Shown here: positions 38 through 1,378 of the stretch, piece by piece
Numbering within the stretch: the stretch's first letter is position 1
Layout: each line of letters begins with the position of its first letter
DNA from: a virus
Taxonomy: Duplodnaviria; Heunggongvirae; Uroviricota; Caudoviricetes
IMG/VR virus record: IMGVR_UViG_638275541_000001
Reading direction: 5' to 3' (one strand)
DNA: 64,000 bases
Made by a program: the position numbers and the translations under genes
Notes under the pieces: model-generated
The model's input: only the letters and a program-made list of their open reading frames with translations
Databases searched by the model: none
What the model was told of the DNA's origin: nothing

Positions 38-1378
38 ATGTCTGCTCTTGTAGACTTTTACAAAGCTGCTGGTTCGAGCCGTAGCAATGTAGAAATCTTA
101 CCAGACCTGTTCTACAAAGCTTTGCGTGACGATGTTGATGTTGCAGTTCGTATTTTACTGCATATGCGAGATGTACGAGAAGGTATGGGTGAGCGTAAAG
201 CCTTCAGAACTGTTTTGCTTCAAGCAATTGAAGATAAAGTTTTAGAGCCTACACAGGTTCTTCGCATTATGGATAAGATTGCAGAACTTGGTCGTTTTGA
301 TGACTTCAAAATCTTCGTAGGTACTCGTTTCGAGACAGATGCCTTCAAACATTTAGAAGCAGCATTACTAGACCCTGCAACAGCAGGTTTGGCAGCTAAG
401 TGGTTACCACGAGTCAAACCACGTCATAAGCAGTTTGTAAAACGTTTCTGTAAGTTTGCCAACTTGAGTGAGAAAGATTATCGCACACTGTTGTCTGCGC
501 TCTCTGATACAGTTGAGCAAAAAATCTCTGCTAATGAGTTTGGTAAGATTGACTACAGTAAGATTCCTTCACTTGCTGCTGCACGTTACCAAAAACTGTT
601 TAACCGCAAAGATGGAGAACGCTACAAAGCTTACATCGAGTCCTTATCAAAGGGTGAGACTAAGATTAATGCTGGTGCTGTTTACCCATACGATGTGATT
701 AAGTCTGTTAAGTATGGTAATGCAGATGTTGCTAATGAGCAGTGGAAAGCACTACCAAACTGGATGGCAGAGGGTGAAAACATTCTCTGTATGTCTGATG
801 TTTCATGTTCAATGTCTTGGGTGAATTTTGGCTCCATTACTGCTCTGGATATTGGTGTATCACTTGCATTGTATGTAGCAGAACGCAATACAGGTTGCTT
901 TAAAAATGAGTTAATGGTTTACTCAACAAACCCTCACTTCATCGAACTGAGTGGTGATTTACGAAACCGTCATCGTCAGGTGATGCGGCACGTTGAATAT
1001 GGCTCAACTAACTTACAAGCAGCTTTTGACCGTATTCTTGAGACAGGTAAAAGAAATAACTTGACTCAGAAAGATATGCCAAGTAAGCTTATCATCTTCT
1101 CAGATATGGAGTTCAATCAGGTTGATGGAGCTAACGGTCGCACAAACTTTGAAGCAATCCAGAGTAAGTACAAGAAAGCTGGATACGAAATGCCACAACT
1201 GGTATTCTGGTACTTAGCAAACCGTAATGGTACTTGCGAAGTATCTGTTAAGGATAACGGTGTAGCAATGGTATCTGGTTTCTCTCCAGCCACTTTAAAA
1301 GCTCTGCTTGGTGGTGAGAAGTTTGACCCTATCAGCGTAATGCTCAAAGCAGTAATGATTGACCGTTATATCTGGTAA
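38..1378 (+). CDS. vWA-domain protein with MIDAS-like motif; frame open to window start, so possibly 5'-truncated
   Basis: 446-aa ORF; DxSxS-type motif (SDVSCSMS) followed by hydrophobic strand LIIFSDMEF typical of vWA folds; helical N-terminal part; no in-frame stop between position 2 and the ATG at 38. Confidence 0.5.
   Translation: MSALVDFYKAAGSSRSNVEILPDLFYKALRDDVDVAVRILLHMRDVREGMGERKAFRTVLLQAIEDKVLEPTQVLRIMDKIAELGRFDDFKIFVGTRFETDAFKHLEAALLDPATAGLAAKWLPRVKPRHKQFVKRFCKFANLSEKDYRTLLSALSDTVEQKISANEFGKIDYSKIPSLAAARYQKLFNRKDGERYKAYIESLSKGETKINAGAVYPYDVIKSVKYGNADVANEQWKALPNWMAEGENILCMSDVSCSMSWVNFGSITALDIGVSLALYVAERNTGCFKNELMVYSTNPHFIELSGDLRNRHRQVMRHVEYGSTNLQAAFDRILETGKRNNLTQKDMPSKLIIFSDMEFNQVDGANGRTNFEAIQSKYKKAGYEMPQLVFWYLANRNGTCEVSVKDNGVAMVSGFSPATLKALLGGEKFDPISVMLKAVMIDRYIW

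What the first reader, a model, noticed from the sequence alone, without database searches (positions are those of the whole stretch)
38..1378. vWA/MIDAS protein directly upstream of the tRNA/structured-RNA cluster
The ORF has a clear DxSxS motif and following vWA-like strand, preceded by a helical region, and its frame is open to the window edge so the N-terminus may be missing. From established knowledge, Ro60-type proteins combine a helical TROVE domain with a vWA domain and bind structured tRNA-like RNAs, and orthologs occur in some phages; whether this protein is of that type is speculation, prompted by the adjacent unusual RNA elements. It may equally be an unrelated vWA protein.
Basis: inference. 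Interest (0 to 1): 0.45.

Follow-up and report, generated by a model that had tools for sequence, protein, structure and literature searches.

The report
Phage Ro60-like protein with Y-like RNAs
The gene is phage Felix O1 gp42, a ring-plus-vWA protein with the fold of the RNA-binding autoantigen Ro60. Four previously unannotated small RNA modules lie just downstream among the tRNA genes (one is a tRNA mimic), and they belong to an RNA family that sits next to this protein family in many unrelated phages.

Summary
The window is Salmonella phage Felix O1 (FO1a, 100% identity). The ORF is gp42, 471 aa. Its true start lies 38 nt upstream of the window, so the ATG at 38 is internal Met26.

This is not new for the protein. 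The 97%-identical Bas63 gp130 was reported as Ro60-like and as a counter to the Ppl defence (2024 preprint). That work only guessed that some nearby 'tRNAs' might be Y RNAs.

What appears new are four modules (U1-U4, 1710-2554) in the tRNA array. Each has a 7-bp clamp helix, the sequence N-U-A-C-A-G-C-A-A and an invariant 3' G. U4 encloses a V-T-acceptor-D tRNA mimic in the order seen in YrlA.

The same RNA family flanks DUF2828 genes in 52 of 78 distant loci, and all 88 model hits lie on the gene strand. It is absent from Rfam 15. Protein-RNA binding is inferred, not shown.

The parts
1..1378 (+). gp42 coding sequence, 3' 1377 nt. Codons 14-471 plus stop, reading frame from position 2. The true ATG is 38 nt upstream of the window. 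Ro60-like protein of the DUF2828 + DUF7788 families.
797..811 (+). MIDAS DxSxS motif (D279-V-S281-C-S283 of the full-length protein)
   Evidence: Read from the sequence. These residues are invariant in alignment A1.
1007..1009 (+). MIDAS threonine (T349)
1103..1105 (+). MIDAS aspartate (D381, in the IIFSDMEF strand)
1389..1425 (+). 12-bp hairpin directly after the gp42 stop, overlapping a sigma-70-like promoter (TTGACA-17-TAATAT, 1397-1425)
   Evidence: consensus scan only
1488..1517 (+). Second sigma-70-like promoter (TTGACA-18-TAAAGT with an extended TG), 27 nt before the first tRNA of the array
   Evidence: consensus scan only
1710..1788 (+). U1, a short Y-like module between tRNA-Glu and the tRNA-Met-like gene. 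Layout: outer 4-bp stem, AGA x G internal loop, 7-bp clamp AGACCAA/UUGGUCU, UUACAGCAA, hairpin payload.
   Evidence: Model R2 scores it 28.5 bits, E 5.8e-4.
1877..1946 (+). U2, a short Y-like module between the tRNA-Met-like gene and tRNA-Asn. Clamp AGACCGU/ACGGUCU.
   Evidence: R2 scores it 37.0 bits, E 6.7e-6.
2331..2410 (+). U3, a short Y-like module. Clamp AGACCAA/UUGGUCU, outer stem GAGC/GCUC.
   Evidence: R2 scores it 33.1 bits, E 5.2e-5.
2418..2554 (+). U4, a YrlA-like module. It has the same clamp and UUACAGCAA, and encloses a permuted tRNA mimic: V hairpin 2452-2475, T arm 2476-2492, 7-bp closed acceptor-like stem-loop 2493-2510, D arm 2512-2528.
   Evidence: R2 scores it 24.9 bits, E 3.8e-3. 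Present in 250 phage records and unannotated in the 12 records listed.

Best explanation
gp42 is a phage Ro60-like RNA-binding protein. It has an N-terminal helical (HEAT-type, TROVE-like) domain followed by a vWA domain with an intact MIDAS site, and it belongs to the DUF2828/DUF7788 branch of this architecture.

Its most likely partners are four small RNAs, U1-U4, encoded 330-1180 nt downstream on the same strand inside the tRNA array. Two sigma-70-like promoters right after the gp42 stop would drive that array. The modules would be released from the precursor by the same RNase P and 3'-trimming events that mature the flanking tRNAs.

Each module carries a conserved 'clamp':
- a 7-bp helix that begins A-U, G-C, R-Y;
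- an invariant unpaired G just 3' of the helix;
- the single-stranded sequence N-U-A-C-A-G-C-A-A just after the 5' strand.

By analogy with Ro60 and Y RNA, the protein would bind this clamp and the variable payload would engage something else. The payload is a small hairpin in U1-U3 and a V-T-acceptor-D tRNA mimic in U4. Candidate targets are an exoribonuclease such as PNPase, or enzymes and defence nucleases that recognise tRNA.

Shown here: the fold, the MIDAS conservation, the RNA family, and its strand-specific linkage to the gene family.

Taken from the literature: the 97%-identical Bas63 gp130 is needed to overcome the Ppl defence.

Inferred: protein-RNA binding, release by tRNA processing, and payload function.
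For: Protein:
- AlphaFold model with pLDDT 89.9 and pTM 0.89.
- Foldseek top 10 hits are all Ro60/TROVE over the whole length.
- MIDAS residues invariant.
- 7 of 41 family members weakly hit Pfam vWA_Ro60. hhalign to Ro60 residues 332-541 gives E 8e-5.
- Homologues are annotated 'Ro-like RNA binding protein' or 'RNA-binding protein'.
- Bas63 gp130 is the orthologue and was reported as Ro60-like and anti-Ppl (PMC11482910).

RNA in the window:
- AGAAGACCNNWTACAGCAA occurs 4 times, against 0.04 expected.
- All four copies fold into the same outer stem / AGA x G loop / 7-bp stem, with compensatory changes between copies.

RNA-gene linkage in 75 distant DUF2828 loci (38-47% protein identity):
- The sequence-only motif occurs 61 times on the gene strand within 2.5 kb of the gene. 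It occurs twice on the opposite strand nearby and 5 times elsewhere.
- 46 of those 61 have a 7-bp partner, against 5.25 expected.
- A broader census finds 93 units on the gene strand in 52 loci, against 2 on the opposite strand.
- 26 loci have units but no tRNA gene, so the link is to the gene and not to tRNA arrays.

Covariance model R2, built only from non-Felix sequences:
- It ranks U2, U3, U1 and U4 as the top four hits of the 64-kb window (E 6.7e-6 to 3.8e-3). The next hit has E 0.17.
- It gives 88 hits with E<=0.1 in 906 kb searched on both strands, all on the gene strand, in 52 of 78 sources.

tRNA mimic and conservation:
- The V-T-AS-D order recurs in 9 units from 8 phages and matches published YrlA (PMC4201824; bioRxiv 10.1101/312249).
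- U4 co-occurs with the gene across Ounavirinae: 250 records each.
Against: - No binding data exist for any member of this protein or RNA family.
- Pfam TROVE is not matched, and the N-terminal domain shows no profile-profile match to vertebrate Ro60.
- The published Ro60-recognition motif of bacterial Y RNAs, GNCGAAN0-1G, is absent. Felix O1 has CAGAAG and the family has WAAGR.
- No Rfam Y RNA family is hit.
- In the preprint, gp130 alone, from a plasmid or inserted into T7, restores T7 growth on a Ppl host. That activity therefore does not need the phage RNAs.
- About a third of the sampled loci, including KVP40, show no unit next to the gene.
- Helix covariation counted on my hand-picked set is biased, because pairing was a selection criterion. 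Only one search is an unbiased test.
Confidence: 0.7

Rival explanations
1. gp42 has a Ro60-like fold but acts on its own, or with host RNAs, as an inhibitor of a host defence such as Ppl, for example through its MIDAS face. On this view the adjacent clamp RNAs are cis-acting regulators of its expression or processing signals, not stable partners.
For: gp130 alone rescues T7 on a Ppl host (PMC11482910). In at least seven distant loci a unit sits in the 5' UTR of the gene with the ribosome-binding site directly after its 3' strand, which looks like autoregulation.
Against: Felix O1 has no unit upstream of gp42. Units occur in arrays of up to six per locus and carry elaborate payloads, including tRNA mimics and ~245-nt domains. 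That is hard to explain as mere leaders. Autoregulation would itself require the protein to bind the clamp.
Confidence: 0.2
2. The protein is an ordinary vWA/MIDAS protein unrelated to RNA, such as an adhesion, chaperone-partner or structural protein. Its position next to tRNAs is coincidental.
For: Pfam files it under domains of unknown function. TROVE is not hit. A PDB sequence search finds Ro60 only at E=1.
Confidence: 0.04
3. U1-U4 are features of the tRNA array itself, such as processing or terminator hairpins, degenerate tRNAs, or small mobile repeats spread by the HNH endonucleases. On this view they have nothing to do with gp42.
For: They lie between tRNA genes. U4 contains tRNA-like arms. 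HNH endonuclease genes are interspersed in the array.
Against: 26 distant loci have units next to the gene but no tRNA gene in the locus. Mycobacteriophage BigCheese has three units directly after its Ro-like gene with no annotated tRNA nearby. The conserved ACAGCAA and the invariant 3' G are not tRNA features.
Confidence: 0.06

Closest known systems
Bacterial Ro60 (Rsr) with Y RNAs: Deinococcus Yrn1/Yrn2, Salmonella and Mycobacterium YrlA/YrlB (PMC4201824; bioRxiv 10.1101/312249)
   Same: The protein has a ring-like helical domain plus a vWA domain with MIDAS. Several small RNAs are encoded within 2 kb on the same strand. Each RNA is modular, with a stem formed by its two ends and a variable effector module. 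One RNA per locus carries a tRNA mimic in the order V, T, closed acceptor stem, D, and the others are short hairpins. A conserved UA (YUAY) follows the 5' strand of the stem.
   Different: By sequence the protein is DUF2828/DUF7788, not TROVE. The RNA lacks GNCGAAN0-1G. It has instead WAAGR at the helix start, ACAGCAA after the helix and an invariant G 3' of the helix. It is embedded in a phage tRNA array and is not detected by any Rfam 15 model.
Bas63 (Escherichia phage JohannRWettstein) gp130 (PMC11482910)
   Same: It is the orthologue: 97% identical, in the same position directly upstream of the tRNA array. It was reported as structurally similar to Ro60 and as a counter to the Ppl defence.
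   Different: That work named no RNA and suggested only that some annotated tRNAs might be Y RNAs. The candidates found here are the unannotated spacers between tRNAs, not the tRNAs.
Thermus phage phiLo Ro60 with Yrl1/Yrl2 (PMC12135203; PDB 9KOP, 9L5Y)
   Different: phiLo Ro60 is a recognisable TROVE protein, and its RNAs carry the CGAA motif in an internal loop. Binding, a cryo-EM complex and PNPase recruitment were shown there; nothing has been shown for gp42.
'Ro-like RNA binding protein' of cluster L mycobacteriophages (BigCheese gp55, LeBron gp53)
   Same: Same protein family: 33% identity over the full length. Three clamp units, one of them with a tRNA mimic, lie directly downstream of the gene.
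   Different: No tRNA array at that locus. The clamp sequence differs (UGGNNNN...NNNNCCA-G). Only overexpression toxicity is reported (PMC13148394).

Membership tests
Ro60 / TROVE protein family | TROVE domain recognisable by sequence (Pfam PF05731) | tested here: not met
   No TROVE hit at E<=1 for gp42, nor at E<=10 for any of 41 family members. hhalign against a vertebrate Ro60 alignment does not align the N-terminal domain.
Ro60 / TROVE protein family | Helical repeat domain followed by a vWA domain, superimposable on solved Ro60 structures | tested here: met
Ro60 / TROVE protein family | vWA domain with a MIDAS motif, specifically related to the Ro60 vWA | tested here: inconclusive
   The MIDAS residues D-x-S-x-S, T and D are invariant. 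Specific similarity to the Ro60 vWA is weak: Pfam vWA_Ro60 is hit by 7 of 41 members (best E 4.7e-4), and hhalign gives E 8e-5 at probability 61%.
Ro60 / TROVE protein family | Binds Y RNA on the ring surface and single-stranded RNA ends in the central hole | not testable with these tools
   Needs RNA immunoprecipitation, gel shift or a structure.
DUF2828 + DUF7788 (PHROG 850) | Matches both Pfam models above their cut-offs, and matches the PHROG over its full length | tested here: met
   DUF7788 148 bits against a cut-off of 27.1. DUF2828 101 bits against a cut-off of 29. PHROG 850 E 2e-180.
YrlA-type bacterial Y RNA (for U4) | Encoded near the Ro60-type gene on the same strand | tested here: met
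   U4 starts 1040 nt after the gp42 stop on the + strand.
YrlA-type bacterial Y RNA (for U4) | tRNA-like module in the order V, T arm, closed acceptor-like stem-loop, D arm, enclosed by a stem formed from the RNA ends | tested here: met
   Predicted fold of U4: T loop UUCGAUU, 7-bp acceptor-like stem, D loop AAUGGUA. The order is the one published for YrlA. The acceptor-like stem shows a compensatory change in SUSP1 and ESh22.
YrlA-type bacterial Y RNA (for U4) | GNCGAAN0-1G motif on the 5' strand | tested here: not met
   Felix O1 units read (G/U)(A/U)C-A-GAAG, with one extra A. The wider family has WAAGR and no CGAA.
YrlA-type bacterial Y RNA (for U4) | Conserved YUAY / UA following the stem | tested here: met
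   UUAC in U1, U2 and U4, AUAC in U3. T13 is nearly invariant (at least 90%) and A14 is invariant in A3.
Rfam families of known RNAs (release 15) | Covariance-model hit to U1-U4 or to units in related loci | tested here: not met
   Only tRNA-type hits and sub-threshold noise appear.
MoxR-type AAA+ / vWA pairs | Adjacent AAA+ ATPase partner gene | tested here: not met
   The neighbours are gp41 (123 aa, PHROG 4114, unknown function) and the tRNA array. This check rests on annotation only.

The most novel reading that the evidence does not exclude
DUF2828/DUF7788 proteins and the 'ACAGCAA-clamp' RNAs form a second, very widespread class of Ro60/Y-RNA-like ribonucleoproteins in phages. The protein family is in 708 of 50,697 phage genomes, across hosts from Mycobacterium to Vibrio. 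A short conserved clamp presents interchangeable payloads: small hairpins, tRNA mimics, a ~100-nt class and a ~245-nt structured class. The system may be used against host defences that act on RNA or tRNA.
Probability: 0.55. Interest if true: 0.78.

Novelty: new variant of a known kind. Interest (0 to 1): 0.62.

Why it matters
Ro60 and Y RNAs are a long-studied but functionally unclear ribonucleoprotein, and the phage versions are only beginning to be examined. The Bas63 orthologue of gp42 has a measurable phenotype (it counters the Ppl defence), but its RNA partners were unknown. This analysis names four concrete candidates with exact coordinates, a sequence and structure signature, and a covariance model that finds relatives next to the gene family in about two-thirds of the sampled distant phages. 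The question 'does this Ro60-like protein work with Y-like RNAs, and what do the payloads do?' becomes directly testable in tractable E. coli and Salmonella phages. It also gives DUF2828/DUF7788, a large family of unknown function that also occurs in eukaryotes, a structural and functional hypothesis. Finally, it shows that spacers in phage tRNA arrays can hold unannotated non-coding RNAs.

Tried and rejected
- A sequence search of gp42 against PDB chains found nothing. A family-profile search found Ro60 only at E=1.
- Rfam searches at E<=1, E<=10 and at gathering thresholds, on the window and on 14 related loci, gave only tRNA/tmRNA-type hits and sub-threshold noise.
- The exact Felix O1 pattern AGAAGACC...GGTCTGG occurs only in Felixounaviruses. 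The link to distant phages came from reading the BigCheese intergenic region.
- MAFFT could not bring the 3' strands of the units into register. I therefore used excised 37-nt 'mini' constructs (A3).
- Model R1, built from those constructs, cannot span long payloads and scored the Felix O1 units poorly (E 1.4-8.6). Model R2, rebuilt from R1's real hits, works.
- Helix covariation on A3 is reported, but it is biased because pairing was a selection criterion.
- hhalign against a shallow vertebrate Ro60 profile aligned only the C-terminal part. A deeper profile including bacterial Ro60 was not available.
- KVP40 has no unit and no sizeable intergenic gap beside its gene.
- PADLOC and NCBIfam gave no hits for gp42.
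- I considered reading the Felix O1 'GACAGAAG' as the YrlA GNCGAAG motif with one inserted A. I rejected this as a defining match because the wider family shows WAAGR without CG.
- A literature search for DUF2828 returned only unrelated plant and genome papers.
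Full report
**Identity of the window and the ORF.**
- Nucleotides 1-1400 are 100% identical to Salmonella phage FO1a (Felix O1, Felixounavirus). 250 phage records match at megablast level.
- In FO1a the ORF is gp42, annotated from 38 nt upstream of window position 1, giving 471 aa.
The frame is open from position 2.
- The upstream residues are conserved in homologues. PHROG 850 aligns the window-encoded part to profile positions 18-476 of 476.
- The gene is real and widespread: 2536 homologues among the 8000 candidates scored, and tblastn matches in 708 of 50,697 phage genomes. 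The hosts include Escherichia, Mycobacterium, Salmonella, Vibrio, Listeria, Staphylococcus, Campylobacter, Enterococcus, Bacillus and Aeromonas.

**What the protein is by sequence.**
- Pfam gives DUF7788 (148 bits, residues 261-442 of the window part) and DUF2828 (101 bits).
- PHROG 850, 'RNA-binding protein', matches at E 2e-180.
- TROVE is not hit at E<=1, nor at E<=10 in any of 41 family members. Among those members, 24 hit VWA_2 and 7 weakly hit vWA_Ro60 (best E 4.7e-4).
- The MIDAS residues D279, S281, S283, T349 and D381 are invariant in 41 sequences of 40-88% identity. So are several basic and aromatic residues of the N-terminal domain, including R40, R69, R72, R78, R111, K146 and W147.
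- A profile search of PDB sequences finds Ro60 (1yvp) only at E=1.
- To test sequence-level homology to TROVE I retrieved genuine vertebrate Ro60 proteins, all carrying PF05731 + PF25045, and aligned 17 of them.
- hhalign of the two family alignments aligns only gp42 columns 236-444 with Ro60 332-541. That covers the last helix of the helical domain plus the vWA domain (E 8e-5, probability 61%). The N-terminal 235 residues do not align.

**What the protein is by structure.**
- An AlphaFold2 model of the full-length protein was built from the 98%-identical P0001 with a 41-sequence alignment. It is confident: pLDDT 89.9, pTM 0.89, and no segment below 50.
- The model is all-helical for residues 28-263, followed by an alternating strand/helix domain.
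- Foldseek against the PDB returns ten Ro60/TROVE chains first: Xenopus Ro60 alone and with RNAs, Ro60/La/pre-5S complexes, Thermus phage phiLo Ro60 and Deinococcus Rsr. All are aligned over 515-569 columns, with E from 2.6e-8 to 8.9e-7 and TM up to 0.68. The next hits are isolated vWA domains at E 3e-3 and worse.

**Prior knowledge.**
- RefSeq Felixounaviruses annotate the gene as 'RNA-binding protein'. Full-length mycobacteriophage homologues (31-34% identity) are annotated 'Ro-like RNA binding protein'.
- The PhageMaP preprint (PMC11482910) studied Bas63, which is Escherichia phage JohannRWettstein. Its bas63_0130 is the orthologue: 97% identical and in the same position before the tRNA array.
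[quoted passage not shown] Deleting it impairs Bas63 on a host carrying the Ppl defence, and gp130 alone rescues T7 on that host, whether supplied from a plasmid or inserted into T7.
- A canonical TROVE-type phage Ro60 with two adjacent Y-like RNAs and PNPase recruitment has been characterised for Thermus phage phiLo (PMC12135203).
- The protein-level interpretation is therefore correct but not new.

**The RNA modules in the window.**
- ARAGORN finds 25 tRNAs from 1544 to 8025.
- In the spacers between them, AGAAGACC-NN-W-TACAGCAA occurs four times, at 1714, 1881, 2335 and 2422. The expectation is 0.04, and there are no other copies on either strand in 64 kb.
- Each copy is followed 36-104 nt later by YYGGUCUGG.
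- All four fold the same way. There is an outer 4-bp stem that differs between copies but stays paired (UGAC/GUCA, UUAC/GUAA, GAGC/GCUC). Next comes an AGA x G internal loop, then a 7-bp helix AGACCNN/NNGGUCU that also co-varies (AA/UU against GU/AC), then single-stranded UUACAGCAA or AUACAGCAA.
- U1-U3 (1710-1788, 1877-1946, 2331-2410) enclose AU-rich hairpins.
- U4 (2418-2554) encloses four elements in order. These are a V hairpin, a T arm (GAGGG-UUCGAUU-CCUUC), a closed 7-bp acceptor-like stem-loop (ACUCGGC-AGGU-GUCGAGU), one U, and a D arm with loop AAUGGUA.
- That is the order published for YrlA, the tRNA-mimicking bacterial Y RNA. In YrlA the Ro60-binding stem is formed by the RNA ends and a conserved UA follows it.
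- The published 5' motif GNCGAAN0-1G is not present. Rfam 15 gives no hit to any of the units.
- Two sigma-70-like promoters (1397-1425 and 1488-1517) lie between the gp42 stop and the first tRNA. The modules would be transcribed with the tRNAs and freed by tRNA processing. This last step is inference.

**The RNA belongs to a family linked to the gene family.**
- In mycobacteriophage BigCheese, the 369-nt gap after the Ro-like gene holds three units. Each has a stem whose 5' strand is followed by UAACAGCAA or CUACAGCAA. The middle unit carries T, acceptor-like and D arms, and no tRNA gene is annotated there.
- I fetched 80 IMG/VR loci encoding relatives. 75 of them are non-Felix, with 38-47% protein identity.
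- An unbiased sequence-only test used [AT]G[AG]N5[AT]ACAGCAA. It finds 61 copies on the gene strand within 2.5 kb of the gene, 2 on the opposite strand nearby and 5 elsewhere.
- 46 of the 61 have a 7-nt complement 20-270 nt downstream, against 5.25 expected from shuffled 7-mers. Units lie upstream (24) or downstream (22) of the gene.
- With a slightly broader motif there are 93 units on the gene strand in 52 of 75 loci, against 2 on the opposite strand.
- 26 loci have units but no tRNA gene.
- In 46 aligned clamps, the G directly 3' of the helix is invariant although it was not a selection criterion.
- Helix covariation on this hand-picked set is very high (98.8% paired, 120 double changes). 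It is biased because pairing was required for inclusion.
- Covariance model R2 was built only from 29 non-Felix hits. It ranks U2, U3, U1 and U4 as the four best matches of the whole window on both strands (37.0, 33.1, 28.5 and 24.9 bits; E 6.7e-6 to 3.8e-3). The fifth hit has E 0.17.
- One caveat on independence: model R1, which gathered those 29 hits, had five Felix-type clamps among its 46 training sequences.
- Over 906 kb of related loci searched on both strands, R2 gives 88 hits at E<=0.1. All are on the gene strand, in 52 of 78 sources.

**Variety of units and conservation.**
- Payloads fall into at least four classes: short hairpins, tRNA mimics, a ~100-nt class with a CCUUUCUGGAGGGGAAAG hairpin, and a ~245-nt class. 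The tRNA mimics comprise nine units from eight phages, including two in Klebsiella phage KP13-16, where the gene again precedes a tRNA array.
- In several phages a minimal unit sits in the gene's own 5' UTR with the ribosome-binding site immediately after it.
- Within Ounavirinae all four units are conserved in Suspvirus and Mooglevirus. The acceptor-like stem of U4 there carries a compensatory change (ACUCG/CGAGU to ACACG/CGUGU).
- U4 is found in 250 phage records, 244 of them at 80% coverage or more. That matches the number of records holding the gene, and it carries no RNA annotation in any of the 12 records listed (one shows only a hypothetical-protein CDS).

**Mechanism.**
- The best-supported reading is that gp42 is a Ro60-like protein and that U1-U4 are its Y-like RNAs. 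The conserved clamp is the protein-binding site, by analogy with Ro60 recognising the 5' strand of a conserved Y RNA helix. The payloads are effector modules.
- U4 mimics tRNA. With its 7-bp acceptor-like stem it may be an RNase P substrate, as M. smegmatis YrlA is.
- What the RNP does is not known. The precedents are tethering of PNPase (Deinococcus, Salmonella, phiLo) and, for this very protein family, overcoming the Ppl defence.
- gp130 alone suffices against Ppl in T7. The RNAs are therefore either dispensable for that activity, replaceable by host RNAs, or serve a different function. This is the main evidence against an obligate RNP.

**Classification.**
- The protein is a member of DUF2828/DUF7788. 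It works like, and folds like, Ro60, but it fails the sequence definition of TROVE.
- The RNAs work like YrlA and YrlB in architecture and genomic linkage. They fail the GNCGAA motif and match no Rfam model.
- I therefore file the whole as a new variant of the Ro60/Y RNA kind.
- The protein part is already known. The RNA family and its linkage appear undescribed in Rfam 15 and in the searched literature.

Noticed in passing
window 2553-2696 (+): Directly after U4 lies a 148-nt element closed by a ~24-bp stem (UUAUCUUUGUAGAUAAG...CUUAUCUACAAAGAUAA) with a multi-branched interior. Its folding energy is -47.9 kcal/mol, z-score -6.4, and none of 200 shuffles folds as well. It has no ACAGCAA clamp, no tRNA call and no Rfam hit.
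   Followed up: partly
window 1797-1873 (+): ARAGORN calls this tRNA-Met(CAT). The Rfam tRNA model does not reach threshold; only tRNA-Sec matches, at 15.9 bits. It sits between U1 and U2 and may be an atypical tRNA or a tRNA-like RNA.
   Followed up: partly
window 3796-3874 (+): An Rfam tRNA hit (31.7 bits, above the gathering score) that ARAGORN does not call. It overlaps the start of the HNH endonuclease ORF 3848-4240. A further orphan T-loop-like sequence (GGTTCAACTCC) lies near 4436.
   Followed up: no
window 2866-3360, 3848-4240, 5158-5571 (+): Three paralogous HNH endonuclease ORFs are interspersed in the tRNA array. Related phages lack some of them, and the number of clamp units per genome also varies from 2 to 4.
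   Followed up: no
L009 5950-5990, L015 1760-1799, L019 2855-2894, L029 5946-5989, L063 5903-5947, L049 5902-5949, L071 2146-2193: In these distant phages a minimal ~40-nt clamp unit lies in the 5' UTR of the DUF2828 gene, with the ribosome-binding site (GAAGGA/GGAG) immediately after the 3' strand. This suggests translational autoregulation by the protein.
   Followed up: partly
L011 7467-7724, L012 7468-7724, L023 4620-4864, L073 6076-6324 and relatives; L009 5273-5373, L010 3130-3235, L015 146-283, L029 5731-5831: Two further payload classes are enclosed by the same clamp. One is a ~245-nt domain with conserved blocks, and the other is a ~100-nt domain with a CCUUUCUGGAGGGGAAAG hairpin. Neither matches Rfam at gathering thresholds.
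   Followed up: partly
L001 3894-3928 (34-68 nt upstream of the gp42 start, outside the window): The sigma-70-like promoter in front of gp42 (TTGACA ... TAAAGT) is spanned by an 8-bp inverted repeat, GACAGACT...AGTCTGTC. This could be an operator or a coincidence.
   Followed up: no
window 1061-1378 (+): FO1a annotates 'gp42.1', an in-frame internal ORF sharing the gp42 stop. It is probably an annotation artefact.
   Followed up: no
L025 8605-9054: One distant DUF2828 locus carries a phage-encoded tmRNA (75 bits) and a tRNA array a few kb downstream of the gene and its clamp units.
   Followed up: no
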